Virus record (IMG/VR): IMGVR_UViG_3300024262_003767 | DNA: 64,000 nt | Origin: a virus | Strand: one strand, 5' to 3' | Shown: one piece after another, positions 9,690 through 52,078 of the stretch | Layout: every line of letters starts with the position of its first letter | How positions within the stretch are numbered: the first letter of the stretch is position 1 | The notes under the pieces: model-generated | What the model saw: only the letters and a program-made list of their open reading frames with translations | Databases searched by the model: none | Told to the model about the DNA's origin: nothing | Position numbers and translations under genes: made by a program

Positions 9690-10019
9690 CTTTCAACTTA
9701 TTATAAATTTCAAAATCAACACTACCATCTTCATTAATGTATTGTTCGTAAGTAAACTCACAACATGCTCTAATATGCATCATTGAAAATCCTTTTCGGT
9801 GACACATACACATACAAATATTTTCTTTTTTCTTTTCCATACGGCAAATATAAACAAAAATATGTAAATAAAAAATGTTCACTAAATAGAAAATGTGTTC
9901 GTTTTTGATGCACATTTTTAATTCATTATTATCACATTATTATATAATATAATGCTAATTAAGTACTTAGTATTTTTGGCACACTTTATGAGATAGTAAT
10001 AAAAAACAATATAGAAATT

Positions 10020-10265
10020 ATGAAAAATTACTTTAAACAAAGATTAAAAAGAGACAAACAAAATAAGATGATTGCTGGCGTTTGTTCAGGAATCGCAAAT
10101 TATTTTGATGTAGATCCAGTATTAGTAAGATCGGTATTTCTCGTTGGATTATTAATGCCGATTAATGGTTTTCCATTGATATATATTGTATTATGGATTT
10201 TAACACCATACGAAGAAGTTGAAGTTAAACATTATAGTAATGAAAAATATTCAGATGAAAAATAA
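10020..10265 (+). CDS. PspC-domain membrane protein
   Basis: LKRDKQNKMIAGVCSGIANYFDVDPVLVRSVFLVGLL....IYIVLWILTP matches the PspC domain consensus. Confidence 0.75.
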   Translation: MKNYFKQRLKRDKQNKMIAGVCSGIANYFDVDPVLVRSVFLVGLLMPINGFPLIYIVLWILTPYEEVEVKHYSNEKYSDEK

Positions 10266-10275
10266 AATTAATAAA

Positions 10276-10515
10276 ATGAAAACAATGAAAACTATGCTAA
10301 TAATTTTAGCAATCCTAATGTTAGGAACAACACTTGGAACATCAACACCAAAAGTAAATGAATCTATTTTTGATTTTCCTGAAGAAGAATATATTGATGA
10401 TATTCCTTTTGATACAGATAAGGTAATTAACCAGGACACTTTTAAAATGGAAGAAGAAGGTTATATTGATGATATTCCATTTAATACAGAAAAAGTTGTA
10501 GAAGAATTATCATAA
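10276..10515 (+). CDS. Secreted small protein with a tandem acidic repeat (start re-assigned to the internal ATG)
   Basis: Signal-peptide-like MKTMKTMLIILAILMLGTTLG; repeats EEEYIDDIPFDTDKV / EEGYIDDIPFNTEKV. Confidence 0.4.
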   Translation: MKTMKTMLIILAILMLGTTLGTSTPKVNESIFDFPEEEYIDDIPFDTDKVINQDTFKMEEEGYIDDIPFNTEKVVEELS

Positions 10516-14500: not shown

Positions 14501-15514
14501 TTATAAATTTTTTAAATTATATTTTAAATACCAATCTATAAATTTCTTTATTCCAATTTTGTATGATGTTGAAGGTTTAAAATCTATTGCTTCTTCCAGT
14601 AATGTGGTGTCTGCACCAGCATATCGAATATTTGTTATGTTGTTTCCAACAAAATCTTTTTCTGACTCTTTATTTAAATTTTTTTCAATCTCTTTAATAA
14701 AATCCATAATATTAATTGGTTCAGAATTACCAATATTATAAATTTTACATAAACCTATACTATTATCCTTCATTAATAAATAAATGCTTTTTACAACATC
14801 ATCAATATAAGTAAAATCTCTATAAATTTTACCATCATTATAAATTGTTATTGGTTTATTATTTATTATTTTTTTAGTAAAAATATAAGCGGCACTATCT
14901 GGTCTACCCCAAGGACCATAAACACTAAATAATCTCATACCTATTGTTTTAATGTTATGTATATGGCTATATGTGTGAGCCATTAATTCGTTAGATTTTT
15001 TAGTTGATGCACACATAGATATTGGTAAATTGGTGTTGTCTGTTTCTTTTAATAATATTTTACTTCTATCTGCTGTTAATCCATATACTGAAGATGCGCT
15101 TGCATACATTATTTTATCTACACCATAATCTTTTGATATTTCTAAAACACTATTAAACCCATGAATATTAATATTAATAAATTTGCTTGGATATACTTCA
15201 CTTAATTTTATTCCCGTAAGAGCAGCAAGATGTATAACAATTTTTACATGAAATTCTGAAAATATTTCTCTTAACCTTTTTGTATCGTTAATTTCTACAT
15301 ACGAAAAATCAAAATTTGAATATTTTTTACTTGTTACTGCTCTACCAATTTCTATTGTATCTATTCCTAATTCTTTAAGTCTATCTAATTTAATAGTATT
15401 ACTATAACCTATTTCTTCAAGAAAATCAACGCCAATAACATCTTCACCTTGTTCAATTAAATATTTTGCCAAATTAAACCCTACAAATCCAGCAACACCA
15501 GTAATTAGTATCAT
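14501..15514 (-). CDS. NAD-dependent nucleotide-sugar epimerase/dehydratase (UDP-glucuronate 4-epimerase-like); start re-assigned to MILITG
   Basis: ILITGVAGFVGFNLAKYL Rossmann motif; YSASKKSNELMAHTYSH (YxxxK); the first 28 aa of the track ORF is an AT-rich leader. Confidence 0.8.
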   Translation of the reverse strand: MILITGVAGFVGFNLAKYLIEQGEDVIGVDFLEEIGYSNTIKLDRLKELGIDTIEIGRAVTSKKYSNFDFSYVEINDTKRLREIFSEFHVKIVIHLAALTGIKLSEVYPSKFININIHGFNSVLEISKDYGVDKIMYASASSVYGLTADRSKILLKETDNTNLPISMCASTKKSNELMAHTYSHIHNIKTIGMRLFSVYGPWGRPDSAAYIFTKKIINNKPITIYNDGKIYRDFTYIDDVVKSIYLLMKDNSIGLCKIYNIGNSEPINIMDFIKEIEKNLNKESEKDFVGNNITNIRYAGADTTLLEEAIDFKPSTSYKIGIKKFIDWYLKYNLKNL

Positions 15515-15604
15515 AATTTTTTGATGTTTTATTTTTATATATTGATTTTTTATAAATAAAAAATAATTTTTAATATATAGATAGAGAAAAAATAACAATT
15601 TCTA

Positions 15605-24949: not shown

Positions 24950-25249
24950 TTACCTCTCTTTTTTTAATCGTTTTGTTTTTTGTTTTCGTAATTGCCTTCG
25001 TAATGCTTCAGTTGCCATATCAATTGAACGTTCAAAGTTTTCAGATTGTTTTTTTGAATATAAAGAACAACCTTGACAATTTAATTTAATTTCAACAATT
25101 TTATTTTCAGGTTTATTCCCTATTCCTAATATTACGTCAACATCTATAATATGTTGATGATGTTCTGTTAATTTTTTAATTTTTTCTTTTATAAAAAAAA
25201 CGAGTTTATTGTCTGTTTTAAAATGAACAGATTCAATGTTTAAATTCAT
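24950..25249 (-). CDS. hpf: Ribosome hibernation promoting factor (HPF/RaiA, short form)
   Basis: MNLNIESVHFKTDNKLVFFIKEKIKKLTEHHQHIIDVDVIL matches the HPF N-terminal fold consensus; 99 aa. Confidence 0.8.
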   Translation of the reverse strand: MNLNIESVHFKTDNKLVFFIKEKIKKLTEHHQHIIDVDVILGIGNKPENKIVEIKLNCQGCSLYSKKQSENFERSIDMATEALRRQLRKQKTKRLKKER

Positions 25250-27352: not shown

Positions 27353-28216
27353 TTAATTTAATTCACCTTCCCAAACAATTTTATATTCATATTTACCTGG
27401 TAGTAGTATAATTTCTCTTTGATTTGTATGGTAATATTGTGTTGGTAATTTCTGTACGTCAACTAGTACATCTTTAGGTTGTACTTCCATCATAATAACA
27501 AAAGGTGGTGATGATGGTTGTTCATCCACAAATCTTCTAGCCACTAATATATTTGTAGTCCAAGATGTCGACATATTGAAATCGGATATAACTTTTTCAC
27601 CAACTTTGTATGGTGGGGTTTTTTTTGAAAAATGTTTTATTTGAACTTCTTCAATACCTTTATAAATCTTTAAAGGTTTATCTGGTTTAAAAGGTTTTAA
27701 TTCGTCTATAATATCTTGTGTTAATTTTGATAATAACAAAGAGCCAGAACCTATATATGAATATAACCAATCATCAGTTTTTTCAGATAATTCAACATTT
27801 ATCCTTTCAGGTGTATGTTTATCATATTTAGTAAATCCTCCAATGTAACGAAAAGATATCACATCTCCATTTTTAATTCTTGCTAACCATTCACCTGTTA
27901 TTGAATGTTTATAAAAATAACCAGAATAATCATCAACATCAACTTCTTCATCTTCACTAAATCCAAAAAAATCTACAATTTGTTTATATAGAGGTTTTTT
28001 TGTTTTAATTTGATAGATATATTCACTATTTATATCAGATGCGTCTGCTCTATTTGTTAAATAGATTCTTTTTAAATGATTTAGATTACTAAAATCTATA
28101 TCTTCTAATTTTAATGGTTCATCAGAATATAAATATAAATTTCCATTATATGTTTTTTGATCGTAATCTACTTCATTATAATCTACAAGTTCAAATAATT
28201 TGAATTTAGTTATCAT
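27353..28216 (-). CDS. Hypothetical protein with a possible C-terminal ADP-ribosyltransferase-like domain
   Basis: FNMSTSWTT (STS) followed about 55 aa later by NQREIILLPG (Q-x-E); upstream IYKG in the position of the YRG Arg; overlaps the CCA-enzyme gene by 11 nt. Confidence 0.3.
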   Translation of the reverse strand: MITKFKLFELVDYNEVDYDQKTYNGNLYLYSDEPLKLEDIDFSNLNHLKRIYLTNRADASDINSEYIYQIKTKKPLYKQIVDFFGFSEDEEVDVDDYSGYFYKHSITGEWLARIKNGDVISFRYIGGFTKYDKHTPERINVELSEKTDDWLYSYIGSGSLLLSKLTQDIIDELKPFKPDKPLKIYKGIEEVQIKHFSKKTPPYKVGEKVISDFNMSTSWTTNILVARRFVDEQPSSPPFVIMMEVQPKDVLVDVQKLPTQYYHTNQREIILLPGKYEYKIVWEGELN

Positions 28217-29465
28217 TCATAAGATATTCATTTTTGAAACGCACAATCTCTCGTCTTTTCTTTTCTATTTCAATTTCAATTCCTTTGAAACCTTCAGCAG
28301 CTAAATCATTACCATTAACCACAAATCCATCATTACAATAATCAACAAATGGTTTATAGAATTCTTCACCCAAAAACTCATAAATTAAATCATCATCAAT
28401 ATGATATTGATTTTTCATTTTAGCCAAACCGTAAACATTTGAAACGTCAATGTTTTTAAATGATTTCCAATGTAAATCTAATTCCTTCTCAAGTTTGAGC
28501 AAAAATTCAATCTGGTTCACTAACTTGGAACTAAATTTCAATTCACTAATCATATATTTTCTCAATTTACGAATATCATTATCACGAAGTAAATGTGCAA
28601 ATAATATTGCGGAAATAGGTTTTGGTGTAAATCCATCGGGAGATATTTTCAATTTGGGAAACATTTGTTCCCACATATCATATTCAGTTAATAGTCTGAT
28701 ATAATTTTCTAATATTTTGTTTCCGCCTTTTTCTGCGTGTTCAATTACCTTATTCCATTCTTCATGTATTCTTTCTTGTGATACATCTTCTTTGGTACTT
28801 ATACCACGTAGTCTGTTATCACTTTTAATGGCTCTTGATGTCTCAGGTGATATGATACCACCTTTTCTACCTTGGGCTCTTGCAGCGAATCTAAATACTC
28901 TTAAAATTCTTAATCTATCTTCTTTAAATCTCTCAGCAGGATCACCAACAGCACGTATAACATTATTTTCAATATCTTTAACTCCACCAACCAAATCTAC
29001 AATTTCTTTTTTATTTATATCATAGAAAAGAGCATTGATAGTTAAATCTCTACGTTTAACATCATCTTCGATTGTAATATGGTTTCCAATTTCTACTTTA
29101 TCATCATCACCTTTTGTATCTCTACCTCCAGAAATATCTTTTCTAAAAGTTGCTAATTCGTGTCCGAGTGGTTCATCTTCAGTATAAATTCTAAGTACGC
29201 CAAAATTTTTACCTTGTTCATCAGAAACATTCCAACCTTTCAAAATTCTTTTACTTTCTTCTGGTAGAGCATTTGTGACTAAATCAAAATCATGTGGTAT
29301 CTTTTTTTGCAAAAAATCACGAACCGCTCCACCAACAACATAGATATCTTTACCAGCATTATTGAAGGCTCTTGATATTTCTTTAATGTCATAAGGAATA
29401 GGCATCTCAACAGAGATAGTATTTTCAGTTATAAATTCTAAATATTTTTTTAATTTTTCTACCAT
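28206..29465 (-). CDS. cca: tRNA nucleotidyltransferase (class II CCA-adding enzyme / polyA-polymerase head domain)
   Basis: VVGGAVRDFLQKKIPHDFDLV (GGxVRD...DxD) and RRDLTINALFYD motifs. Confidence 0.85.
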   Translation of the reverse strand: MVEKLKKYLEFITENTISVEMPIPYDIKEISRAFNNAGKDIYVVGGAVRDFLQKKIPHDFDLVTNALPEESKRILKGWNVSDEQGKNFGVLRIYTEDEPLGHELATFRKDISGGRDTKGDDDKVEIGNHITIEDDVKRRDLTINALFYDINKKEIVDLVGGVKDIENNVIRAVGDPAERFKEDRLRILRVFRFAARAQGRKGGIISPETSRAIKSDNRLRGISTKEDVSQERIHEEWNKVIEHAEKGGNKILENYIRLLTEYDMWEQMFPKLKISPDGFTPKPISAILFAHLLRDNDIRKLRKYMISELKFSSKLVNQIEFLLKLEKELDLHWKSFKNIDVSNVYGLAKMKNQYHIDDDLIYEFLGEEFYKPFVDYCNDGFVVNGNDLAAEGFKGIEIEIEKKRREIVRFKNEYLMNDN

Positions 29466-29529: not shown

Positions 29530-30435
29530 ATGAAAATAAAATTATTTGAAAATTTTGGGGGTGACACTATATTAGATAAACCTTTTGTTAAAAAAATAAG
29601 AGGTAAATATTTTTTACCAAATGTTGACTTTACCTGTTTTGATTTGAATTGTCTTAAAACCAGCAAAAAATTATCTACACTTAATTATTCATCACTTATT
29701 AGATTTTATTTATTTGTTTGGTTGTTAAAATATAATGGTACTGATGATTGGACTAATTATATTATTAGTGTTTTGAAAGATCCATCTAATCCAACATATG
29801 ATAAAGTGTGGAGAAATTTAAATCAGATGGGAAATAATAACGCAGTTCTCAAATATTTTAAATCTAAACTTGGGTTAAATATAAAAGATAATAAAGATGA
29901 TAATATTGATACTCTCACCAAAATGGATGAAATGAAAGATATGCTATTTAATGATATGAATTTTAGAGAAATAACATCTATTGTAAGTGATTTAACTAAA
30001 AAGGCAACAGAAAGTGAAACTAATGTTAAATTTTTCTTGAAAAGAATATGGGGTAAATATTATAAGATTAACGACCCTACTGATGCGGAAGATATAAAAG
30101 GTGTTGATTTATGGAGGTTGAATATTAAAACTGGTGATAGAGATAGATTACAAGTTAAAAATATTAGTGAAAGTGTAAGTGTTAATGTGTCTGGTGAAAC
30201 AATTGCGATTAAACCTTCAAGAATAGATCTAAGAGATTACTATTCAGGTACAGATACTTTAAAATTTGACTATTTAATTTTATATGATAAATTTAGAGAA
30301 AAATTGTGGGTTATAAATGGTAAAGCCATTTTCAAAATTAAGAAATATGATAGTATGGTTTTAATTATTTTGAAAAAATGGGATCCTAAATATAATCCTA
30401 TGAAAGAGTATGATATACCTAAAAGATTTACTTAA
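29530..30435 (+). CDS. Hypothetical protein
   Basis: ORF only. Confidence 0.3.
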
Positions 30436-31357
30436 TAGATTCTAAATAAGATTCATATGTCATTTTAATACCTTCTTCTAGAGAATATTTATGTTTCCAA
30501 CCTAAATTGTGTAATTTATCAACATTCAATAATTTTCTTGGTGTACCATCAGGTTTAGTTGTATCATATTTAATTTCACCTTCATAACCAATAACGTTTT
30601 TCATTATTTCAACTAATTCTGTAATCGACACATCTTCACCTGTTCCAATATTTACAATTTCACCATCTTCATATGTTTGCATCAAATAAAAACACGCATC
30701 AGCAACATCATCAACATATAAAAATTCACGTTTTGGTGTTCCTGTTCCCCACATTTCAATAAATGGTGTGTTGTTTATTTTAGCTTCATGAACTTTTCTA
30801 ATTAACGCAGGAAAAACGTGAGATGTTTCTAAATTATAATTATCATTTGGTCCATATAAATTTGTTGGCATCATTGAGATAAATTTAGTGCCATATTGAT
30901 TGTTATAACTTTGGCACATTTTAATTCCTGCAATTTTTGCAGTTGCATAAGCGTCATTAGTTGGTTCTAAGTAACCACTCATCAATTCAGATTCTTCTAT
31001 TGGTTGTTTTGCAAATTTTGGATAAATACAAGAACTACCTAAAAACAACAATTTTTTAACACCAAATACACAAGAATTATGAATTAAATTGTTTTGTATT
31101 TGTAAATTATCATAAATAAATTCTGCTGGATAATCTTTATTTGCCATTATACCACCAACTTTAGCCGCTGCGATAAAAACATAATCTGGTTTTTCTTCTT
31201 CAAAAAATTTTTGAGTATCGATTTGATTTTTTAAATCCAGTTGTGAATGTGTTCTAGTTATTATATTTTCATATCCTTCAGATTGTAATTTTCTAACAAT
31301 TGCACTTCCAACCATACCTCTATGACCTGCAACATAAATTTTATCATATTTATCCAT
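30428..31357 (-). CDS. fcl: GDP-L-fucose synthase (GDP-4-keto-6-deoxymannose epimerase/reductase)
   Basis: [19 protein letters not shown], YxxxK ([12 protein letters not shown]), length 309 aa, colinear with Fcl/WcaG. Confidence 0.85.
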
Positions 31358-31773
31358 TTAATAATATTATTTTTTTTGAAACTTTTTTATACGCTTAATA
31401 GTTTCTTTAAGATCTTCTTCATAATATAATATTAAAAAGTCAACATCCCTCTCATTAATATTATATCTTTTCATTAAATCATCTATCTCTTCTTTTTTAA
31501 ATTTAGATTTGATTTTTGTGGTTTTATTTATTTTAGTTTGCCAATACCAACCAGGTATATTTGTTGTACTACCAAATATTGCGAACCAAATATCTAATGA
31601 TGATGGTTTATTTATATTTTTATTATTAAAAAATTGTGCTTTTTTTATATCCTTATAGGCGAATTTGCGATTGAGAATAAAAAAATTTCTTTCTTTATCA
31701 TCATCAGTAATAAACCTATATTTATCTTTATCTTTGAAGATGATGTTTCCTAAACTTATAAAATCAATTGCCA

Positions 31774-33954
31774 TTAATAAAATTGTTTAAATATTTTTGA
31801 GATTTTTTCTTTTGTTATTGGTTTTACAATTTGAAAATCTATATTCTTCTCTACCATATCTGTGGTAGATATTGTAATTATAGTTAACTCTTCATCTATT
31901 TGTTTTAATTTTTCTATGAAATCTAGTATATTAATATTTGATAAACTCATATCTATAAATATTGCATCAATATCACCTAATTTTTCTTCAAGTACATCAA
32001 GTGTTTCCTTTGATGATAGTGTCCATTTAATTTTAACATTCATAGATTTTAACATTATACCTAATAATGAATAGTTTTCAGGTATATCTTCTAATACTAT
32101 CACTTTAATATTAGAAAAATCATACACAATTTTATTAACTTGTTTTGTTTGAATATTTTGAACTTCTTGTAATGGAAGAGTAAAAAAGAATGTGCTTCCT
32201 TCTTTTTGAGTTGAATCTACCCATATATTTCCACCAAGTATATTAACTATACTTTTTGCGATAGATAATCCCAATCCTGTACCTTGGTATTGTTTTTTTG
32301 ATGATGCATCAACTTGCATAAATTTATCAAAAACTATTTCTAATTTATCTTCTGGAATACCAATACCAGTATCTTCAACAAAGAATGTTATAATATTGTC
32401 TTTTATTCTTGTACCAATTCTTATATGTCCACTTTCAGTAAATTTAATTGCATTACTAATCAAATTATATAATACCTGTTTTAATCTAAGAAAATCAGAC
32501 ACTATTATTTCATTATCTTCTCGTTTTTCGAAAGTTAATTTTACCGAATCTATATTCTTTCTAATATTTATATCTATAAAAATTTCTTCTAATTCTTCAA
32601 ATAAATCATTGATTGGGAATCGTTCATATAATAGTTCTAAATTTAATTCACCTGCTTCAATTTTAGCATAATCTAATATGTTATTTAATAATTCTTCTAA
32701 ATGTTTTGCATTAGCATTTATAGTTTTAAGAAATTTTTTATTATTGGTAGTATCAAACTTATCATCTAATAATATATCTGAAAAGCCTATAATCGAATTC
32801 ATTGGCGTTCTTATTTCGTGACTCATATTTGCCAAAAATAGTGACTTTAAAAGATCACTTTTTTCTGCTTCTATTTTTGATTTTTCTAATTCTATTTTAA
32901 TATTTTCTTGTTCTGTAATATCTTTACAATGAATTGCAATATACTCCGTTGAGCCATTATCATTTAAAATGGGATATATGTAATTTTCAAAATATTTATT
33001 ATTTATAACATCAATAAAATGTACTGGTTTGCCTGTAAATATTGCTTCAAGTGTTCTTTTTCTTTTGGGTTCTACACTCTCTTTAGGTAAAATCTGTGAT
33101 ATGTTCACTCCTACTAATTCTTCTCTTGTTTTATTAAAATATTTACAACCTCTATCATTTATTGCTAATAACTCACCTACTTTATTTGTTAAATAAGATG
33201 CACTTAATGTTGAATTTATAATATCTAAGTGTTGTCTCTCCTTTATTTTCATATCAGTAATATCTTGAAATATGGTAACAAAACGATGTGAGTTTTGTTT
33301 ATATGCATCAATTAAAAACCATTTCTGAAAAATATATGAATATTTTTCAAAATGTAAAGTCTTATTATCAGTAAATATTTGAGAATATATCCTTATCCAT
33401 TCACTCGAATCTTTATCTAATATTTCAGTTATATTTTTTCCAATAATTTCTGAATCTAAACCTGTGGTTTCGGTGAACGCTTTATTTATTCTAACAAATT
33501 TATAATCAATAGGTTTGCCACTATTATCAAATATCATTTCATGTAGAGAAAATGCTCGACTCATATTATCAATAATCTTTTCAAGTTCTTCACTTTTAAA
33601 AATATAATCTTTACTTATTTGAGATAAATGTTTTTCATCTTGATATACAACATGTACAAAATTTTCCTCACCTCGATAGATATAATTATATCTCCAACGA
33701 TTAAATTTATCGTCTTTATACTCTTTTAATTCGTGTGTCATACATTCTCCACTATCATACACTTTTAATATTTTATCATAAATACCAAAGTCGATTACTT
33801 TAGAAAAAACATCAACCAATTTTTTATCAATAACATCATATTCAATTCTTTCTACCGTATAAAAATTTTCTGATACTTCGTGAAAATATATATCTTCATC
33901 GATAATTTTATATGTGATAGAAACAAAATCAAAAATTTTTTCAAAATTTTTCAT
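31774..33954 (-). CDS. Cytoplasmic hybrid sensor histidine kinase (PAS domains, HisKA, HATPase_c, C-terminal receiver)
   Basis: H-box MSHEIRTPMNSIIGFSDIL; N, G1/G2 boxes (NLISNAIKFT, DTGIGI, GTGLGLSIAKSIV); receiver with VIVLEDIPEN and DAIFIDMSL; no TM segment. Confidence 0.9.
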   Translation of the reverse strand: MKNFEKIFDFVSITYKIIDEDIYFHEVSENFYTVERIEYDVIDKKLVDVFSKVIDFGIYDKILKVYDSGECMTHELKEYKDDKFNRWRYNYIYRGEENFVHVVYQDEKHLSQISKDYIFKSEELEKIIDNMSRAFSLHEMIFDNSGKPIDYKFVRINKAFTETTGLDSEIIGKNITEILDKDSSEWIRIYSQIFTDNKTLHFEKYSYIFQKWFLIDAYKQNSHRFVTIFQDITDMKIKERQHLDIINSTLSASYLTNKVGELLAINDRGCKYFNKTREELVGVNISQILPKESVEPKRKRTLEAIFTGKPVHFIDVINNKYFENYIYPILNDNGSTEYIAIHCKDITEQENIKIELEKSKIEAEKSDLLKSLFLANMSHEIRTPMNSIIGFSDILLDDKFDTTNNKKFLKTINANAKHLEELLNNILDYAKIEAGELNLELLYERFPINDLFEELEEIFIDINIRKNIDSVKLTFEKREDNEIIVSDFLRLKQVLYNLISNAIKFTESGHIRIGTRIKDNIITFFVEDTGIGIPEDKLEIVFDKFMQVDASSKKQYQGTGLGLSIAKSIVNILGGNIWVDSTQKEGSTFFFTLPLQEVQNIQTKQVNKIVYDFSNIKVIVLEDIPENYSLLGIMLKSMNVKIKWTLSSKETLDVLEEKLGDIDAIFIDMSLSNINILDFIEKLKQIDEELTIITISTTDMVEKNIDFQIVKPITKEKISKIFKQFY

Positions 33955-33955
33955 A

Positions 33956-34525
33956 TCATTTTAATTTTTTGAAACAAACTCTACATAAAGGTTTATAACT
34001 TTCATTACCACCAATTTCTATTTGTTCTCCTTCGGTAACTATAATATTATCTTTAAATCTACTATTTACAATGGCTTTTTTGTTTTTACATTCAGAACAT
34101 ATCGTTTTTATTTCTTCTATACTATCTGCCATCGTCATTAAATATTTTGAACCTTCAAATGGTTCCAATCTATAGTCTGATCTTAAACCATAACATATTA
34201 CAGGTATGTTTAATATATCGACAATATCTGACAATTGAAAAATGTGGTCTTTTGTTAAAAATTGTGATTCGTCCACTAAAATAGCCTTTATTTCATATGC
34301 CATTGGTTTAACATATTGGTATATATTTAATTTTTTATCTACAGGAATTGCAGGTTTACTTAAACCTACCCGAGACTTAACCACACCTTCTCCATACCTA
34401 GTATCTAAGGCTGATGTGAAGATTAAAATTTTTTCATTATTCTCTTCATAATTATATGAAACTTTCAGTAAATCAAGGCTTTTACCAGCACCCATGCTGG
34501 AATATCGGAAAAATAATTTTGCCAT
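33956..34525 (-). CDS. tdk: Thymidine kinase (TK1 type)
   Basis: P-loop SSMGAGKS; C-terminal Zn ribbon CSECKNKKA...CRVCF. Confidence 0.9.
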   Translation of the reverse strand: MAKLFFRYSSMGAGKSLDLLKVSYNYEENNEKILIFTSALDTRYGEGVVKSRVGLSKPAIPVDKKLNIYQYVKPMAYEIKAILVDESQFLTKDHIFQLSDIVDILNIPVICYGLRSDYRLEPFEGSKYLMTMADSIEEIKTICSECKNKKAIVNSRFKDNIIVTEGEQIEIGGNESYKPLCRVCFKKLK

Positions 34526-34879: not shown

Positions 34880-34912
34880 AAAAAAAGGGAGATGAAAGTC
34901 TCCCTTTTTTTT
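34880..34912. terminator. Bidirectional intrinsic terminator between convergent genes
   Basis: A-run, GGGAGA-tgaaag-TCTCCC hairpin, T-run. Confidence 0.7.
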
Positions 34913-39402: not shown

Positions 39403-39912
39403 ATGAATTGGTATGTAATACGAGTAGTAACTAGTAAAGAAAAGAAAACAAAAGAATTAATTGAAAAAGAATTGGAACTATATAAATTAGATAATAAAGT
39501 GTCTCAAATTTTGGTTCCAAGTAAGAAAGTGATGCAAATGAGAAATGGTAAAAAATATACTATTGAAAAGAATGATTTTCCAGGATATATTCTCATCGAA
39601 ACGGATAAAGTTGATGAACTAGTTTCAACTATTAAAAATGTTTCAAATGTTTTAGGGTTTTTAGGTGTGACTCACCCAGAACCACTAAGGCAAAGAGAGG
39701 TGGAAACAATCGTTGGTAGACAAAATAACACAATAGTTGAAGATAAATATTTTATTGGTGAAGTTGTAAAAGTCACCGACGGTCCTTTTAACTCATTTGT
39801 TGGTGAAATTATTCTAGTGAATGATAAGAAGAAAGCTGTAAAAGTGAACATTAAAGTTTTTGGACGTGATGTTCCAGTAGATTTGACTTATATTCAGATA
39901 GAAAAGAATTAG
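39403..39912 (+). CDS. nusG: Transcription antitermination factor NusG
   Basis: NGN domain MNWYVIRVVTSKEKK; KOW GEVVKVTDGPFNSFVGEIILVNDKKKAVKVNIKVFGRDVPVDL. Confidence 0.9.
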   Translation: MNWYVIRVVTSKEKKTKELIEKELELYKLDNKVSQILVPSKKVMQMRNGKKYTIEKNDFPGYILIETDKVDELVSTIKNVSNVLGFLGVTHPEPLRQREVETIVGRQNNTIVEDKYFIGEVVKVTDGPFNSFVGEIILVNDKKKAVKVNIKVFGRDVPVDLTYIQIEKN

Positions 39913-39975: not shown

Positions 39976-41106
39976 TTATTCCTCTTTTTCTTTAACTAAG
40001 TTAAGATATATCTTTCTATCATCTTTGATAACAGAAATAACCTTAACTTTTACTTGATCACCTTTCGTTAATTTGGCATTATTCTTCACAAGGTATGTGG
40101 TTTGTATTAACCCCATAGTTTCATAGTCAAGTGAAATTAATGCTCCAAAATTTTTCACATCAATTACTTTTCCTGATAATATTTTACCTACTTTAATTTT
40201 ATCCCAAAGAGACTCTTTTAAAGATTGTGTTAGTATAATCTTTTGACTTTTTGTGATTTCCTTAACATAAAAATCAATTGCCATACCAGGTAGGATTTGG
40301 TGCCATCTATCTTGCCACTCAGTATTTATGTTCATTTTATGAATCATACCTGTAAGACAATTATTGAATTGAACAAATACTCCAAATGGTGTTGTTCCAG
40401 TAACTTCGCCTGCATAAACGACATCATTTTTTAGTTTTTTGATCTCTTCTGGTATAAGTGTCTTAAGATATTTTCTTCGTGAAACAACATAAACCCCCTT
40501 TTCTTGTTGCAATGTCTCTAACATCACATTTAGAGTTTCACCAATAATTGATTCAGGATTTGCGAGTTTATTAACATCAGCTAATGTATTTGGCATAAAC
40601 GCATCGATAGTTACATTATCCATATAAATATCAAGCATATAGCCTGCTGGTATTAATTCCTTCACCTTAGCAACAAGTGATAATCTTTCTTCATAATAAG
40701 TTTTCAATTTATTATGAACATTCATTTTAATTAATTCTGTAATAGATCCTCTTATTAAGAATGGATCGTCTTGAATTGATGTTATTAGTACATCAATTTG
40801 TGAACCAGGCTCTAACCCTATCACTAATTTTCCTTTTGGTGTGTCAACATAAATGTAGTCTTTATACCCAAAATCAACAGTTATTTCTGTATCATCTATA
40901 GATACTATCACACCTTTGATTATTTCCCCTTCTCTTACTTCTCTTAAATCAAGAAAAGTTTTTTCCATCATACGATAAAGATTTTGATAATCTTCAGTAA
41001 GATTAGATAAATCACCTTTTACTTTGATTATTTCTCTATCATTAGTTAGAAACGGAAAAGGATCAGGAAGTGATCCTACATTTACGCCTTCGATTAATTT
41101 CGACAT
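39976..41106 (-). CDS. rpsA: Ribosomal protein S1-like (multi-S1-domain RNA-binding protein)
   Basis: Three to four S1 repeats: GEIIKGVIVSIDD, GEVTGTTPFGVFVQF, GKILSGKVIDVKNFGALISLD...KGDQVKVKVISV. Confidence 0.7.
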   Translation of the reverse strand: MSKLIEGVNVGSLPDPFPFLTNDREIIKVKGDLSNLTEDYQNLYRMMEKTFLDLREVREGEIIKGVIVSIDDTEITVDFGYKDYIYVDTPKGKLVIGLEPGSQIDVLITSIQDDPFLIRGSITELIKMNVHNKLKTYYEERLSLVAKVKELIPAGYMLDIYMDNVTIDAFMPNTLADVNKLANPESIIGETLNVMLETLQQEKGVYVVSRRKYLKTLIPEEIKKLKNDVVYAGEVTGTTPFGVFVQFNNCLTGMIHKMNINTEWQDRWHQILPGMAIDFYVKEITKSQKIILTQSLKESLWDKIKVGKILSGKVIDVKNFGALISLDYETMGLIQTTYLVKNNAKLTKGDQVKVKVISVIKDDRKIYLNLVKEKEE

Positions 41107-46955: not shown

Positions 46956-49472
46956 TTAGGCTTCTAAAAGTGGAGTTTCATCTTTTGGTGGTAATTCTTT
47001 ACTATTCAAATTAACAATAGTAATCTCACCATCTTTACTTCTAAGTGAAACTTTATCACCAATTTTAATTTCACCATTGAGAATAGCATCTGTTAGAGTA
47101 TCTTCAATGTGTCGTTGAATTGCTCTTTTCAATGGTCTTGCACCATATTCAGCATCCCATCCTTCTTCAAATAAGAAGTCTTTAAGTGACTTTGTGATAT
47201 TTACAACATAACCAATATCTTTAAGTCTATCGAGAGTTGTTTTAATTTCAAGGTCAATAATTCTGAAAATGTTGTCTTTTGAAAGAGCGTTGAACATTAT
47301 AAGTTCATCAACTCTATTAAGAAATTCTGGTGCAAATTTCTTTTTCAATTCTTTATCAATAACAGCGTTCTTCTTATCTTGAATGTTTTTGTTGGTGGCA
47401 TTTGTTTGAAATCCCATACCTGTACCAAAATCTTTAAGTTGTCTTGAACCTGTATTCGATGTCATTATGATAATTGCGTTTTTAAAATTAACTCTTCTAC
47501 CATAACTATCAGTAAGAATTCCATCATCAAGAACTTGTAGAAGTATATTAAATACGTCTGGATGCGCTTTTTCCATTTCATCAAGAAGAACAATTGAATA
47601 TGGTTTTCTTCTGATGGCTTCAGTTAATTCACCACCATCATCATAACCAACATATCCTGGAGGCGCTCCAATCAATTTTGAAACTGAATGTTTTTCCATA
47701 TATTCAGACATATCAATTCTAATGAGGTTTTCTTCTGAACCAAAGAGTTCTTTTGCTAGAACCTTTGCTAAGTAAGTTTTACCGACACCTGTAGCACCTA
47801 AGAACATAAATGTTCCGACAGGTTTTTTAGGATCTTTGATACCAATTCTACTACGTTTGATTGAACGAACAATTTTATCAACAGCATCATCTTGTCCAAT
47901 AACAATATTTTTCATTTTAGTTCCAAGATTTCTCAATTTGTTTGATTCATCATCATCAACAGCATCAAGTGGGATTTTGGTCATCATTGAAACAACTTCA
48001 GCAATATCTTCTTTTCCAACGATTTCACGATTTTCGTCCAATTTTTCGTTCCATTCCTCTTTCAATTTTTTCAATTGTTCTGTAAGGTTTCTTTCTTTAT
48101 CTCTCCAAGAAGCAGCTTTTTCAAATTTCTGTTCGTCAACACATTCAGTTTTCTTTTTCTCGGCTTCTGAAATTTTACTTTCAAGAATAGAAATAGCTTT
48201 AGGTTGATTTGAATTTGAATCTACATGAACTTTGGCACCAGCTTCATCCAAAGCGTCAATTGCTTTATCTGGCATAAATCTATCATTCATATATTTATCA
48301 GTCAATTTTACACAAGCTTCAATTGCTTCATCTGTGTACACGACTTTGTGATAATCCTCATATCTAACTTTGAGTTGTTTAAGGATTTCAATAGTTTCTT
48401 CAATGGTAGTAGGTTCTACCACAACTTTTTGAAATCTTCTTTCTAATGCACCATCTTTTTCAATATGTTTTCTATATTCTTCGAGAGTAGTTGCACCAAT
48501 ACATTGGAATGTTCCTCTTGCTAATGCTGGTTTTAACATATTAGATGCATCAAGTGAACCTTGTGCGCTACCAGCACCAATAATTGTATGAATTTCATCA
48601 ATAAAAAGTATAATGTTTGATGTTTCTTCAATTTCTTTGATAATTCCTCTTAAACGAGATTCAAATTCGCCACGATATTTTGTTCCTGCAACAAGGGCAC
48701 CCATATTAAGGGTGAAAATTCTTTTATCTTTAATGTTGTTTGGCACTTTACCATCAACAATTCGTTGTGCTAAACCTTCAACAATTGCAGATTTGCCAAC
48801 TCCAGGCTCACCTATAAGAATAGGATTATTTTTCTTTCTACGTGAAAGAATTTGACTTATTCTTTTAATCTCAATTTTTCTACCAACAACTGGATCGAGA
48901 GAACCTTCTTTTGCTTTTTTGGTAATATCTTCACCAAATTGTTCAATAAGTTTAGGTTTCTTATTTTTATTTGATGCTGTTGTATCACTATGATGCATTT
49001 CTGGATCATCCCAATCTGCACTATTACTTATTCCAGTAACTTTTTCGTGTAATTTTTTAATTATCTCACCTTCATCAATTTTTGAAAACATATCATTTAA
49101 AATATTATTTTTAGTATTTAAGAGTGAAAGTAATACTACATCAGTATCAACATATTTGACATCCATTTCATCAATTATTCCAACACAATTTTCAAGTATG
49201 TCCGTAACTTCTTGTGATAATTGTACTTTATCTTTTCTCTCTGCCAATTGAATATGCTCCATTTGGTTTCTCATTACCAAAGCATCTTGAATAGTTTTTT
49301 TGATTGTTGGAATACGAATATCAATTTCTTGAAGAACTTGATAAGCACGATAATTTTCATCCTCAATTAGAGCCAAAAACAAGTGTTCTGGTTCAATTTC
49401 AGATGATTTATATTGCAACGCAATCGTCTTACTATTCTTAATCACATTATCTACGTCTTTGTTAAAGTTCAT
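46956..49472 (-). CDS. clpC: ClpC-type AAA+ unfoldase (Clp_N, two AAA modules, UVR-like M-domain)
   Basis: Clp_N repeats ([16 protein letters not shown]); Walker [19 protein letters not shown] and GATGVGKT; UVR motif [11 protein letters not shown]; sensor-2 [10 protein letters not shown]. Confidence 0.9.
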
Positions 49473-49777: not shown

Positions 49778-50080
49778 TTAATCTTTCTCAATCGTGAGTG
49801 TTAATCCTTGTTCTTCAAGTGCGGATTTAAAAGGTTTTAATTTATCTTTTGAACCAGTTTTTAAGATACTCGCACCTTTCATATGAACTGTCCAAGCTGT
49901 GTTTTCAGCTTTTTCTGGACTAAAACTCATAATTGATATCAGACATAAAATTACATGATCAAAAGAATTGACTTCATCATTCCATAAAATCAATTTATAG
50001 ACTTTATCATCCGATGGTTCAATACCCGCTTTACTGAGTATTTCTTCTAATGTTTTTGTTATTTCTTTTGTGTCGCTCAT
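49778..50080 (-). CDS. clpS: ClpS adaptor protein
   Basis: YKLILWNDEVNSFDHVILCLISIM...AENTAWTVHMKGASIL matches ClpS (YKVILLNDDYTPMEFV...ATQLML.VH..G). Confidence 0.85.
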   Translation of the reverse strand: MSDTKEITKTLEEILSKAGIEPSDDKVYKLILWNDEVNSFDHVILCLISIMSFSPEKAENTAWTVHMKGASILKTGSKDKLKPFKSALEEQGLTLTIEKD

Positions 50081-51375
50081 ATTCCTAATTCCTCTTTATA
50101 TAGTTTAACAGTATTAAAGTTTCCAGTATATTTTCCTTCACTATCAGACAACTTTACACAATCTCTCCAAACTTTCATTCCTTCAGGTAAGGCTTCAGAC
50201 ATCTTAATTACCATATTTAAAGGTTTTGCCTTTTTTAAAGTTTCCATAAAATAACCACCATTTGGATTTGGTATCGATTCCCAATTAAATTGGTTATGAT
50301 AATCTTCATCATAGATACCATTTTGTGAAACCAAAACAACATCGTTTGATAGCCAAGTACCTATACCATAGGAAGATAATATTTTATTTCTCACACAATT
50401 TTCAATTGTTTTAATTTTTTCTATACTATTTATAGAGTCAGAAAATACAATTGTTTTTGGAATCATACCATTAGGCATTTTAATACCTTTATTTATGTAA
50501 TGTTTGATAGTTTTTTCTGCGAATTCAACAGGTTCACCAGAATCTTGACGAACACCGTCAAATAATTTTGAATAAAATAAATCAAAACCTTCAAAGAAAA
50601 TATCTGTTGTATATGTATCAGAAAGTGCAATTCCTAATGCTCCTTTATAAGCATCTACCCAACGACCCATTCCTACACGATTAGCCATCATCACACCGTA
50701 TTTAGCAGCGTGAAACATAAACCATTCGTGTGCCTGAGTTCCAATTGCTTTAATACCATATTTACGAGCAAACATCACATTGGATGTACCAACGATTGTT
50801 TTTGGTGCAACTTTCAAAAATTCTTCAATAACTCTACCTTGGATAAATTTTGAAAATCTTCTGCGGGTTCCAAATTCAGATAATGAAATTCCAAGTTCAG
50901 ATAATTGTTTAAATTTTTCATCCCAAATTTCCATTGACTTTTCTAAGTCAACTTCTTCACCTGAGAAAAGGAAGAATAATTCTGATATTAAAGCCATTAA
51001 TTGAACTTCCCAAAATATAGTTTTGTGCCAAAAACCTTCAATTTCTATTTCTAATACACCATTTTTTTGAGTAACTTTAACTTCATTAGGATCATATTGA
51101 TAACTCCTAAGATACATATAATAGGAAATATCAAAGAATGGAAGTTTACTTTTCAAATGTTCTTCAATTTCTTTGGTAAATTTTAAATTTTTGAAATGAG
51201 CAATCTGTTCTTTTAACTCGGTAGCAAAACCTTTTGGAAATTTACGGGTTTTATCTCTGAGTATGAACTTATACTTAACCTTAGCGTTAGGATAGTGTTT
51301 TAGTATGGCAAATTGCATGAAATACTTATAGGCGTCCTGATCATCAAATTCGGTAATTATTGGTTTAAATCTCAT
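50077..51375 (-). CDS. pncB: Nicotinate phosphoribosyltransferase (PncB/NAPRT)
   Basis: Colinear with E. coli PncB: DDQDAYKYFMQFAILKHY, LPFFDISYYMYLRSYQYDPNEVKVTQKNGVLEIEIEGFWHKTIFWEVQLMALISE, EFGTRRRFS, VGTSNVMFARKYGIKAIGTQAHEWF. Initially mistaken for NAMPT. Confidence 0.9.
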   Translation of the reverse strand: MRFKPIITEFDDQDAYKYFMQFAILKHYPNAKVKYKFILRDKTRKFPKGFATELKEQIAHFKNLKFTKEIEEHLKSKLPFFDISYYMYLRSYQYDPNEVKVTQKNGVLEIEIEGFWHKTIFWEVQLMALISELFFLFSGEEVDLEKSMEIWDEKFKQLSELGISLSEFGTRRRFSKFIQGRVIEEFLKVAPKTIVGTSNVMFARKYGIKAIGTQAHEWFMFHAAKYGVMMANRVGMGRWVDAYKGALGIALSDTYTTDIFFEGFDLFYSKLFDGVRQDSGEPVEFAEKTIKHYINKGIKMPNGMIPKTIVFSDSINSIEKIKTIENCVRNKILSSYGIGTWLSNDVVLVSQNGIYDEDYHNQFNWESIPNPNGGYFMETLKKAKPLNMVIKMSEALPEGMKVWRDCVKLSDSEGKYTGNFNTVKLYKEELGI

Positions 51376-51376
51376 A

Positions 51377-52078
51377 TTATAAAAATTTTCCTATTGTTTC
51401 TGATTCAATTTCAATATCTTTTACTGAATTAATAACAAGTATATTATAATCGATTACTAACATTTCAATATATTTATCTAATTCTTCTTCTGTTCCTAAC
51501 CCTTTTGTTGCGGCAAGATTTAAGATAACTTGAAATCCAGCATTGGACAAATCCTTTAAAGTTTCACCTACACAGTAATTAAGTGCTAATCCACCAACAA
51601 TAATTGTTGTTATATTGTGATAATTATAAAATTCAATCAACCCAGTCGAAATTTTACCTTCTTGATCGTGATAAACACTTGTGTAAGGGTGTAGGTGTGG
51701 ATCGACTCCCTTATTTACAATAAAGTTAAAATCTTCAATTTTACCAAGTTCATCAAGAATTTCCGAACCAAATGTTCCTGATTCACAATGCAAATTCCAA
51801 AACATATCAACATTTTTGTGTCCAACTATAGGTGTGAATTGAGGATTTTCTTCAGTTGCTACCCATAACGCATTTTTTGAGTGCATATCTCTTGATATGG
51901 TTTTAACAATTCCTATTAAATTTTGTTTTGCTAATTCTTTACCAATTAGGTGTCCATCAGGTACAGGTAGTTCATTAGGACAGAGTGGAGTAAATCCCTT
52001 TTGAGGGTCAACGTTGTGACTTGCTGTTCTTTCGCTAATCACTCTAATCTTATTCGTATTTTCAAAACTTATATTCAT
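51377..52078 (-). CDS. pncA: Nicotinamidase (PncA, isochorismatase family)
   Basis: VDPQKGF (Asp), NLHCESG, KGVDP (Lys), IIVGGLALNYCV (Cys), in PncA order. Confidence 0.8.
   Translation of the reverse strand: MNISFENTNKIRVISERTASHNVDPQKGFTPLCPNELPVPDGHLIGKELAKQNLIGIVKTISRDMHSKNALWVATEENPQFTPIVGHKNVDMFWNLHCESGTFGSEILDELGKIEDFNFIVNKGVDPHLHPYTSVYHDQEGKISTGLIEFYNYHNITTIIVGGLALNYCVGETLKDLSNAGFQVILNLAATKGLGTEEELDKYIEMLVIDYNILVINSVKDIEIESETIGKFL

What the first reader, a model, noticed from the sequence alone, without database searches (positions are those of the whole stretch)
31774..33954. Soluble hybrid sensor histidine kinase (PAS x2-3, HisKA, HATPase, receiver) with no cognate response regulator nearby
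A 726-aa protein with all kinase boxes (H, N, G1, G2) and a fused receiver domain (phosphoacceptor Asp in IFIDMSL) but no transmembrane segment. Two-component proteins are uncommon in viruses (known in phaeoviruses and a few huge phages). It is flanked by thymidine kinase and an unknown 135-aa protein, and there is no Hpt or output regulator in the window.
Basis: seen in the sequence. Interest (0 to 1): 0.6.

Follow-up and report, generated by a model that had tools for sequence, protein, structure and literature searches.

The report
Megaphage-encoded soluble hybrid histidine kinase
A very large bacteriophage carries an intact bacterial-type sensor kinase with no signalling partner nearby, which suggests the phage senses conditions inside its host, although similar viral kinase genes are already annotated elsewhere.

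Summary
ORF 31774-33954 (-) encodes a 726-aa cytoplasmic hybrid histidine kinase. Its order is three PAS folds (two with Pfam support, one by predicted topology only), HisKA/DHp, HATPase_c and a fused receiver. All H, N, G1, F and G2 boxes and the receiver Asp and Lys are present, and there is no TM segment. No other receiver or Hpt domain is detectable in the 64-kb window.

The window is an AT-rich megaphage related to the 634-735 kb 'Mahaphage' genomes, which are predicted to infect Bacteroidota. The kinase is an accessory gene. It sits between thymidine kinase and a conserved 135-aa clade core gene in one subclade of at least 20 protein clusters, one on a 501-kb viral contig. Sister phages lack it at the same junction.

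The kinase core is under strong purifying selection (dN/dS 0.05-0.19). The fused receiver is derived: helix alpha4 is deleted, constraint is relaxed, and the phospho-Asp is lost in 2 of 10 relatives. Two related phages pair a hybrid kinase with a stand-alone CheY-like receiver and no Hpt.

The most likely function is an intracellular sensor that phosphorylates or dephosphorylates host regulators, or a distal phage receiver. Kinases are already annotated in giant viruses and some jumbo phages, so this is a new member of a known kind and of moderate interest.

The parts
31774..33954 (-). Hybrid sensor histidine kinase gene, 726 aa
   Evidence: ORF. Pfam PAS_9/PAS_4, HisKA, HATPase_c and Response_reg. 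AlphaFold model with mean pLDDT 85.8.
33640..33933 (-). N-terminal module PAS-A (residues 8-105), PAS-like by predicted topology only. It is swapped for other modules in some relatives.
   Evidence: DSSP order is beta-beta-alpha-alpha-alpha-beta-beta-beta, with pLDDT 80-95. There is no Pfam hit even at E = 5. Mean pairwise identity is 33%, and P0009 carries a canonical receiver in its place.
33262..33564 (-). PAS-B (residues 131-231), of the 'AF(A/S)LHEMIFD..G.P.DY.F..N.AF...TG' subtype
   Evidence: PAS_9 at 27.7 bits against a gathering score of 27. PAS fold in the model. 63% mean identity among relatives.
32920..33213 (-). PAS-C (residues 248-345)
   Evidence: PAS_4 at 8e-9 and PAS_9 at 1e-8. 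PAS fold in the model.
32656..32916 (-). Signalling helix plus DHp/HisKA (residues 347-433). The phospho-acceptor H379 is encoded at 32818-32820, in the motif H-E-I-R-T.
   Evidence: HisKA at 1e-20. Continuous helix 347-396 and helix 402-433. H379, E380 and T383 are invariant. dN/dS is 0.045-0.19.
32167..32625 (-). Catalytic ATP-binding domain (residues 444-596) with N, G1, F and G2 boxes
   Evidence: HATPase_c at 7e-31. Motifs verified by translation. The core superposes on HK853 with TM 0.9 and rmsd 1.9 A.
31780..32106 (-). Fused receiver (residues 617-725) with D668 encoded at 31951-31953. It is atypical because helix alpha4 is deleted.
   Evidence: Response_reg at 39 bits for the isolated domain. 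Only about 10 residues lie between beta4 and beta5 in the model. hmmalign shows a 4-8 residue deletion shared by the whole family. D668 is N in P0009 and E in P0012. dN/dS is 0.40-0.63.
33956..34525 (-). Thymidine kinase, the first gene of the co-oriented block. Its stop lies 1 nt before the kinase ATG.
   Evidence: Pfam TK at 7e-46. The junction reads TGATATG. TK lies directly upstream of the kinase in L001, L002, L005, L006 and L014, and as a split gene in L009.
31367..31774 (-). Conserved 135-aa protein of unknown fold. Its start overlaps the kinase stop (TAATG). It is a clade core gene and not a kinase-specific partner.
   Evidence: Junction. 64-81% identity among relatives. 278 clusters. 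Present without a kinase in L012 and L013, and about 67 kb from the kinase in LR756501. No Pfam, PDB or fold match.
30428..31357 (-). GDP-fucose-synthase-like epimerase, the last gene of the block
   Evidence: Pfam Epimerase at 3e-66. Linked to the 135-aa gene in LR756501 as well.
34880..34911 (.). Bidirectional terminator-like hairpin upstream of the TK-kinase block
   Evidence: A stem of 13-14 pairs followed by a T-run on both strands. Five such sites were found against 1.1 expected.

Best explanation
This is an intact, phage-encoded, cytoplasmic sensor kinase. One subclade of AT-rich megaphages related to the 'Mahaphage' genomes acquired it as an accessory gene. These phages probably infect Bacteroidota.

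Shown here:
- The gene sits in a tight co-oriented block of thymidine kinase, kinase, 135-aa gene and epimerase.
- It has three PAS-type sensor modules joined by a continuous helix to a canonical HisKA/DHp and ATP-binding core.
- The core is strongly conserved.

Inferred from the family:
- The protein dimerises.
- An intracellular cue read by the PAS modules sets the balance between ATP-dependent autophosphorylation of H379 and the phosphatase state encoded by the H-E-x-x-T motif.
- The phosphoryl group passes to an Asp on a receiver domain.

My committed reading:
- No Hpt or regulator is encoded nearby, and no Hpt exists even in a complete relative. The physiological targets are therefore host receiver or Hpt proteins.
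- The phage thus couples host gene expression or physiology to a signal it measures during a long infection.
- The fused receiver is alpha4-less and weakly constrained. It acts mainly as an intramolecular phosphate sink or attenuator and is not an obligatory relay step.
For: - Identity and integrity: Pfam and NCBIfam matches. All catalytic boxes are invariant in 66 relatives. The AlphaFold model has pLDDT 85.8, and its core superposes on HK853 at 1.9 A.
- Selection: dN/dS is 0.045-0.19 for DHp and 0.075-0.19 for the ATP-binding domain.
- Phage setting: conserved neighbours hit only the 634-735 kb phage records. SbcC, virion-protein and ClpB PHROGs are present. A relative lies on a 501-kb IMG/VR contig.
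- Accessory status: the same junction reads TK-67aa-136aa with no kinase in L012 and L013.
- No local partner: six-frame receiver and Hpt scans of the window found nothing else.
- No Hpt in the complete 735-kb relative.
- Receiver relaxed: alpha4 deletion, Asp replaced by N or E in 2 of 10, dN/dS 0.40-0.63.
- Precedent for a phage kinase proposed to use a host regulator: phiCDHM1 AgrC (PMC3901668).
- Bacteroidota host hints: Shine-Dalgarno motifs are not enriched, the best cellular relatives are Bacteroidales and Flavobacteriaceae, and the clade's host prediction comes from PMC7162821.
Against: - Only 64 kb of a genome that is probably several hundred kb was seen, so a phage-encoded partner may exist outside the window.
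- Two related phages do encode a stand-alone receiver: L009, 5 kb from its kinase, and LR756501.
- No host genome is identified, so no host Hpt or regulator can be named.
- The PAS ligand is unknown.
- The receiver still keeps D668, K711 and the acidic pair in 8 of 10 members and has dN/dS below 1, so it may be a real relay step.
- dS is close to saturation in this 26% GC genome, so the dN/dS values are rough.
- Nothing here shows expression or activity.
Confidence: 0.45

Rival explanations
1. The kinase is half of a phage-internal two-component pair. Its partner is a stand-alone CheY-like receiver encoded elsewhere in this phage's genome, outside the window. That receiver would control a phage process such as the timing of late genes, lysis or a protease by protein-protein interaction.
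For: - L009, a syntenic relative with a short-form kinase, encodes a canonical 118-aa receiver 5 kb downstream.
- The complete LR756501 genome encodes exactly one hybrid kinase, one canonical 125-aa solo receiver and no Hpt.
- The window covers only part of the genome.
Against: - No solo receiver lies in the 64-kb window, or within 10 kb of the kinase in L001-L006 and L014.
- The L009 receiver has only 3 close relatives, all on short contigs, and none in IMG/VR.
- The two solo receivers are not orthologous, at 26% identity.
- The LR756501 kinase does not group with the window family in a neighbour-joining tree.
Confidence: 0.3
2. The system is self-contained. The fused receiver is the terminal acceptor, and its phosphorylation state controls binding to, or activity on, another protein. 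There would be no further phosphotransfer. One candidate is the translationally coupled 135-aa protein.
For: - The kinase stop overlaps the 135-aa start (TAATG) in all kinase-bearing relatives.
- No Hpt was found anywhere.
- D668, K711 and the acidic pair are kept in most members.
Against: - The 135-aa gene is far more widespread than the kinase: 278 clusters against about 22.
- It occurs without a kinase in L012 and L013, and far from the kinase in LR756501.
- The alpha4-beta5-alpha5 face usually used for receiver output is truncated.
- The phospho-Asp is lost in P0009 and P0012 while the kinase core stays intact.
Confidence: 0.15
3. The gene is a functionless passenger recently captured from a bacterium and on its way to decay.
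For: - It is accessory and absent from sister phages.
- Its N-terminal module is swapped between members, and the receiver is relaxed.
Against: - It has been kept as an intact ORF in at least 20 diverged clusters, down to 41% identity.
- Every catalytic residue is invariant, and core dN/dS is 0.05-0.19.
- No close cellular donor exists among 185,579 species genomes. The best full-length match is about 30% identical.
Confidence: 0.05
4. The contig is bacterial or chimeric, so the kinase is an ordinary cellular gene.
For: - The kinase family is overwhelmingly bacterial.
- Many 'phage' database hits to it are evident bacterial contamination.
Against: - The same gene order recurs on independent assemblies from ENA, Logan, NCBI, JGI and IMG/VR, always among phage genes.
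- The neighbours match only megaphage records.
- GC content is uniform at 24-31% across the window, with no island at the kinase.
Confidence: 0.02

Closest known systems
PAS-containing hybrid histidine kinases of Bacteroidota, for example 'PAS domain S-box protein' of Bacteroidales MAGs and the homologs in Flavivirga jejuensis and Lutibacter maritimus
   Same: They share the PAS-PAS-HisKA-HATPase_c-receiver order, the same PAS-B subtype and the same H box (FLANMSHEIRTPMN).
   Different: - Identity is only about 30-38% over the full length.
- Their receivers are canonical, with alpha4 and DxxMPxMxG present.
- They are encoded in cellular genomes.
- Many have extra PAS or GAF modules, or an Hpt.
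Hybrid kinases of the largest megaphages: LR756501 (737 aa) and P0027/P0028 on 640-678 kb contigs
   Same: They are encoded by related Bacteroidota-type megaphages, are soluble, and are PAS-rich hybrid kinases.
   Different: - Identity is 30-34%.
- They sit at different genomic positions.
- Their receivers are canonical, at 118-147 bits against 40-49 for the window type.
- P0027/P0028 also carry an N-terminal receiver.
- They do not group with the window family in a neighbour-joining tree, so they were probably acquired separately.
AgrC-like kinase of Clostridioides difficile phage phiCDHM1 (PMC3901668)
   Same: It is a phage-borne histidine kinase with no response regulator in the phage genome, proposed to signal through a host regulator.
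   Different: It is a membrane-bound, peptide-sensing kinase of a different kinase subfamily (my own knowledge of AgrC). It lies in a small temperate phage next to agrB and agrD, and has no fused receiver and no PAS domain.
Hybrid histidine kinases of phaeoviruses (EsV-1, FirrV-1) and kinases annotated in klosneuviruses and marseilleviruses
   Same: They are virus-encoded and often hybrid, are thought to sense cues that control the infection programme (PMC12993054), and resemble this model structurally at E = 1e-27 to 1e-41.
   Different: Their hosts are eukaryotes and the virus realm is unrelated. Sequence identity is only 12-24%.
Kinases annotated in jumbo phage Atu_ph07 and in uncultured Caudovirales (BFVD entries A0A2L0UZB1, A0A6J5L941, A0A6J5LDC5)
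   Same: They are phage-encoded multi-sensor histidine kinases.
   Different: Identity is 11-19% over the structural alignment, and they come from unrelated phages. No functional study was found in the searchable literature.
Thermotoga maritima HK853, the structural reference for HisKA kinases
   Same: The DHp and ATP-binding core superposes with target-normalised TM-score 0.9, rmsd 1.9 A and 33-34% identity.
   Different: HK853 is a membrane-anchored, non-hybrid kinase with a separate cognate regulator, RR468.

Membership tests
HisKA-class (class I) sensor histidine kinase | DHp domain with an H box and a phospho-acceptor His | tested here: met
   Pfam HisKA at 1e-20. NMSH379EIRTPMN. H379 is invariant in 66 sequences. 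Two long helices, 347-396 and 402-433.
HisKA-class (class I) sensor histidine kinase | Bergerat-fold ATP-binding domain with N, G1, F and G2 boxes | tested here: met
   HATPase_c at 7e-31. N497/N501, D528xGxG532, F542/F545 and G558xGxG562 are invariant.
HisKA-class (class I) sensor histidine kinase | Three-dimensional similarity of the core to solved kinases | tested here: met
   HK853 entries match with target-normalised TM-score 0.86-0.91 and rmsd 1.7-2.0 A.
HisKA-class (class I) sensor histidine kinase | ATP-dependent autophosphorylation and phosphotransfer or phosphatase activity | not testable with these tools
   This needs biochemistry. The phosphatase-associated H-E-x-x-T motif is present (H379-E380-I-R-T383), but that rests on established knowledge of HisKA kinases and is not an assay.
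Hybrid histidine kinase (fused receiver) | C-terminal receiver domain above the Pfam threshold with an acidic pair, phospho-acceptor Asp and conserved Lys | tested here: met
   Response_reg at 34-39 bits against a gathering score of 30.2. E622-D623, D668 and K711-P712 are present.
Hybrid histidine kinase (fused receiver) | Complete (beta-alpha)5 receiver topology. This is typical of the family but not strictly defining. | tested here: not met
   Helix alpha4 is absent from the model, with beta4 at 691-696 and beta5 at 707-710. A 4-8 residue deletion is shared by the whole family. I therefore file it as a hybrid kinase with an atypical receiver.
Multistep His-Asp-His-Asp phosphorelay | An Hpt domain or protein, and a terminal response regulator with an output domain | tested here: not met
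   None in the window in six frames. None within 10 kb in relatives apart from the solo receiver of L009. There is no Hpt in the complete LR756501 genome. The rest of this phage's genome and the host genome were not available.
PAS sensor domains | Sequence-profile match and PAS fold | tested here: met
   PAS-B matches PAS_9 at 27.7 bits and PAS-C matches PAS_4 at 36 bits. Both fold as PAS in the model.
PAS sensor domains | The N-terminal module (residues 8-105) is a PAS domain | tested here: inconclusive
   There is no Pfam hit at E = 5. The predicted topology and high pLDDT fit a PAS fold. No domain-level fold search was possible.
PAS sensor domains | An identifiable cofactor or ligand | not testable with these tools
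   I recognised no cofactor signature by eye. No ligand-prediction tool was available.
Mahaphage-related megaphage (setting of the gene) | Conserved proteins most similar to the 634-735 kb phage genomes | tested here: met
   The 614-aa and 135-aa proteins hit only LR756501-LR756504, LR745206 and LR756500, at 25-47% identity. A family member lies on a 501-kb viral contig.
Mahaphage-related megaphage (setting of the gene) | Placement by terminase or capsid phylogeny, and genome size above 500 kb for this phage itself | not tested
   I found no terminase or major capsid gene among the window ORFs I scanned. The longest contig on record for this phage is 70 kb.

The most novel reading that the evidence does not exclude
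Megaphages may have repeatedly assembled a minimal, Hpt-less signalling module of their own. It would consist of a soluble PAS hybrid kinase plus a single-domain CheY-like receiver. In the window's lineage the fused receiver has been remodelled (alpha4-less, Asp dispensable) into a regulatory appendage. Such a module would let a virus measure the metabolic or redox state of the infected cell and decide autonomously when to proceed, pause or lyse. That would be a virus-owned decision circuit built from two-component parts.
Probability: 0.15. Interest if true: 0.7.

Novelty: new member of a known kind. Interest (0 to 1): 0.35.

Why it matters
Phages with genomes of several hundred kb are thought to run long, heavily managed infections. 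A conserved sensor kinase under purifying selection would be direct evidence that they monitor the state of the infected cell and feed that information into phosphorylation signalling. The family offers a compact test case:
- It is soluble.
- It is about 730 aa long.
- Natural variants lack the receiver Asp or carry swapped sensor modules.

These features make it usable for asking what a phage senses and whose regulators it controls. The practical value is limited for now because the host, the ligand and the partner are all unknown, and because kinases have already been annotated in other large viruses.

Tried and rejected
1. The 135-aa neighbour as an Hpt or kinase partner. It has no Hpt-HMM, Pfam, PDB-sequence or fold match, and its model is poor at pLDDT 61. 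It is far more widespread than the kinase and is unlinked from it in other phages.
2. My recollection that the 135-aa protein resembles the T4 gp62 clamp-loader subunit. I found no sequence or structure support, so I dropped it.
3. Close relatives in IMG/VR with the single protein as query: none. The family alignment found two loci, both from IMG/VR sample 3300044712.
4. Bacteroidota promoter consensus TTTG-N17-23-TAnnTTTG: 5 matches against 8.3 expected, so not enriched. The sigma-70 scan was at chance, 55 against 53.
5. Defence or anti-defence role: no PADLOC match for the kinase or its neighbours.
6. A shared origin with the kinases of the 640-735 kb megaphages: not supported by a neighbour-joining tree, although that tree has no bootstrap and long branches.
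7. A cellular donor: there is no close ortholog among 185,579 species genomes.
8. Literature on phage or megaphage histidine kinases: six exact phrases gave no paper, and the main megaphage and jumbo-phage papers do not discuss them.
9. tRNA genes as a host clue: none in the window.
Full report
**Observation**

The ORF at 31774-33954 on the minus strand is real and encodes 726 aa.

Pfam finds these domains:
- HATPase_c, residues 487-596, E = 7e-31.
- HisKA, residues 370-435, E = 1e-20.
- PAS_9 and PAS_4, residues 254-350.
- Response_reg, residues 618-717, above its gathering score.

NCBIfam aligns residues 231-725 to hybrid kinases such as TorS, LuxQ, ArcB and BarA. None reaches an equivalog cut-off, so the protein is a generic hybrid kinase and not a named ortholog.

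Translation of the exact codons confirms the motifs:
- H box NMSH379EIRTPMN, and the N, G1, F and G2 boxes.
- In the receiver, E622-D623, D668 and K711-P712.

No 19-residue stretch is hydrophobic enough for a membrane helix, with a maximum Kyte-Doolittle score of 1.32.

**Structure**

I predicted the structure with AlphaFold from a 66-sequence alignment. Mean pLDDT is 85.8. The model shows:
- Three PAS-type folds, at about residues 8-105, 131-231 and 248-345.
- A continuous helix from 347 into the DHp hairpin (347-396 and 402-433).
- An ATP-binding domain (444-594).
- A disordered linker (598-608).
- A receiver (617-725).

The kinase core superposes on Thermotoga HK853 with a target-normalised TM-score of about 0.9 and rmsd 1.9 A. 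The PAS-kinase part matches VicK, WalK and the YF1 photoreceptor.

The first PAS-like module has no sequence-profile support, even at E = 5. I call it PAS-like by topology only.

**What the window is**

- GC content is 22-32% throughout, with no island at the kinase.
- Genes are tightly packed and often overlap.
- The window encodes an SbcC-like nuclease, a ClpB-type chaperone, a virion-protein-like lectin-fold protein, NusG, an S1-domain protein, a CCA-adding enzyme and thymidine kinase.
- A conserved 614-aa protein and the 135-aa neighbour match nothing in 50,697 phage records except the uncultured phage genomes LR756500-LR756504 and LR745206, mostly 634-735 kb, at 25-47% identity.
- Those are the largest genomes of the 'Mahaphage' clade, all predicted to infect Bacteroidetes (PMC7162821).
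- A short-form relative of the kinase lies on a 501,337-bp IMG/VR viral contig with the same gene order.
- Shine-Dalgarno motifs are not enriched upstream of 59 genes (5 found against 6.6% by chance) and the leaders are A-rich. By established knowledge this fits translation initiation in Bacteroidota.
- The best cellular relatives of the kinase are Bacteroidales MAGs and Flavobacteriaceae, at only about 30-38% identity.

**Evolution of the gene**

- The exact protein is on record on an ENA contig of 40.6 kb and a JGI contig of 70 kb.
- About 20 clusters form a family at 41-78% identity. It has long forms of about 730 aa and short forms of about 490 aa, and it is monophyletic in a neighbour-joining tree of the core.
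- In every context I fetched (L001-L006, L009, L014) the order is kinase, 135-aa gene, epimerase. Thymidine kinase is usually directly upstream.
- In sister phages the same junction reads thymidine kinase, a 67-aa ORF, then the 136-aa gene, with no kinase.
- In LR756501 the 130-aa homolog is again near the epimerase, but the kinase lies about 67 kb away.
- The 135-aa family has 278 clusters. It is therefore a clade core gene and the kinase is an accessory gene at that junction.
- The megaphage kinases of LR756501 and of the 640-678 kb contigs do not group with the window family in the tree. This suggests separate acquisitions, but the tree has no support values.

**Constraint by domain**

| Domain | Mean pairwise identity among ten relatives | dN/dS against four orthologs |
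|---|---|---|
| N-terminal module (PAS-A) | 33% | 0.36-0.84 |
| PAS-B | 63% | 0.20-0.37 |
| PAS-C | 58% | 0.21-0.55 |
| HisKA / DHp | 78% | 0.045-0.19 |
| HATPase_c / ATP-binding | 76% | 0.075-0.19 |
| Receiver | 52% | 0.40-0.63 |

These ratios are rough because synonymous sites are near saturation.

The receiver is derived in three ways:
- The whole family shares a 4-8 residue deletion that removes helix alpha4, and lacks the usual MPxMxG stretch after the Asp. The megaphage and Bacteroidales receivers are canonical.
- The phospho-acceptor Asp is Asn in P0009 and Glu in P0012, while their kinase cores remain intact.
- P0009 has a canonical receiver at its N-terminus in place of the first PAS-like module.

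**Partners**

- A six-frame scan of the window found only the kinase's own receiver. It used a receiver HMM built from 97 domains and an Hpt HMM grown to 52 domains.
- Among the relatives' loci, only L009 has another receiver. It is a canonical 118-aa CheY-like protein 5 kb downstream, it is rare and it is absent from IMG/VR.
- I read the whole 735-kb LR756501 genome in 18 pieces and scanned it. It has one kinase and two receivers, namely the kinase's own and a canonical 125-aa solo receiver at 350284-350658, about 312 kb away. It has no Hpt.
- The two solo receivers are only 26% identical.
- Hpt-less pairs of a hybrid kinase and a solo receiver therefore occur in two related phages. No such partner is visible for the window's gene.

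**Mechanism**

Shown:
- Intact catalytic machinery and strong constraint on it.
- A helix that physically links the last PAS fold to the DHp.
- Tight gene coupling: TGA-T-ATG at the TK-kinase junction and TAATG at the kinase-135-aa junction.
- A strong bidirectional terminator-like hairpin just upstream of the block.

Inferred from the family:
- Dimerisation.
- PAS-controlled switching between autophosphorylation at H379 and the phosphatase state (the H-E-x-x-T motif).
- Transfer of the phosphoryl group to an Asp.

My preferred reading is that the targets are host receiver or Hpt proteins and that the fused receiver acts mainly as a sink or attenuator (confidence 0.45). A phage-encoded solo receiver outside the window is the main rival (0.30). 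A self-contained switch acting through the fused receiver comes next (0.15). Decay (0.05) and contamination (0.02) are disfavoured.

**Comparison with what is known**

- Viral kinases are already annotated. A fold search of viral proteins returns kinases of Hokovirus, Hyperionvirus, marseilleviruses, FirrV-1 and EsV-1, jumbo phage Atu_ph07 and several uncultured caudoviruses.
- PHROGs holds seven families that match this protein, six of them labelled 'unknown function'.
- Phaeovirus hybrid kinases have been proposed to sense cues for virus activation (PMC12993054).
- C. difficile phage phiCDHM1 carries an AgrC-like kinase with no regulator in the phage genome, and it was proposed to act through the host's AgrA (PMC3901668).
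- The megaphage and jumbo-phage papers I could read do not discuss histidine kinases. Six exact phrases for phage-encoded kinases found no paper.

**Verdict**

This is a new member of a known kind, a virus-encoded hybrid histidine kinase, found in a megaphage lineage. Three particulars stand out:
- An alpha4-less, weakly constrained receiver.
- Modular swapping of the N-terminal sensor.
- Relatives that pair a hybrid kinase with a solo receiver without any Hpt.

Interest is moderate, at 0.35.

Noticed in passing
window 50077-51375 (-) and 51377-52078 (-): A nicotinate phosphoribosyltransferase gene lies next to an isochorismatase-family gene that may be a nicotinamidase. Together they look like a phage-borne NAD salvage pair.
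   Followed up: no
window 31367-31774 (-); L008 8001-8393; L012 and L013 at 10001-10414: The 135-aa protein belongs to a family of 278 clusters and is 39-83% identical to its listed relatives. It is all-alpha in a low-confidence model and has no Pfam, PDB or fold match. It is a clade-wide core gene of unknown function, usually near thymidine kinase or the epimerase.
   Followed up: partly
window 24950-25249 (-), 39403-39912 (+), 39976-41106 (-), 28206-29465 (-): The window carries several translation and transcription accessories: a ribosome-hibernation-factor-like protein (Ribosomal_S30AE), a NusG-like protein, an S1-domain protein and a CCA-adding/poly(A)-polymerase-family enzyme.
   Followed up: no
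window 14501-15598 (-) and 30428-31357 (-): A GDP-mannose-4,6-dehydratase-like gene and a GDP-fucose-synthase-like gene lie 15 kb apart. Together they would make GDP-fucose.
   Followed up: no
window 46956-49472 (-), 53034-54539 (-), 56432-57583 (-), 58112-61279 (-): A ClpB-type disaggregase, an SPFH/Band-7 protein, an M16 peptidase and an SbcC-like nuclease subunit are encoded here. This set fits a very large phage.
   Followed up: no
L009 16822-17178 (+); LR756501 350284-350658 (-): Two related phages encode canonical stand-alone CheY-like receivers of 118 and 125 aa. The two are not orthologous, at 26% identity. LR756501 as a whole has one kinase, two receivers and no Hpt.
   Followed up: yes
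P0009 (L003 10001-12253): In this relative the first PAS-like module is replaced by a canonical N-terminal receiver, while the C-terminal receiver has Asn in place of the phospho-Asp. The phospho-acceptor function may have moved to the N-terminus.
   Followed up: partly
window 31780-32106 (-): Against ortholog P0003, the receiver-coding region has a lower synonymous difference (pS 0.29) than the rest of the gene (about 0.5). This is unexplained. It could reflect recombination or a constraint linked to the overlapping downstream start.
   Followed up: no
L009 9435-10011; L002 11085-11861; L009 13836-14636: Thymidine kinase is split into 86-aa and 107-aa ORFs in L009. ORFs with only faint LAGLIDADG-endonuclease Pfam hits sit near the CCA-enzyme gene in L002 and L009.
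   Followed up: no
window 34880-34911: A perfect bidirectional terminator-like hairpin of 13-14 pairs with T-runs on both strands lies between the HD-domain gene and the TK-kinase block.
   Followed up: partly
'phages' collection: Many records labelled as Listeria, Staphylococcus, Enterococcus, Salmonella or Acinetobacter 'phage' that match the kinase or receiver look like bacterial contigs. They include whole-genome-shotgun accessions and records annotated as TorS, BarA or ArcB. Raw counts of phage kinases in that collection are therefore inflated.
   Followed up: no
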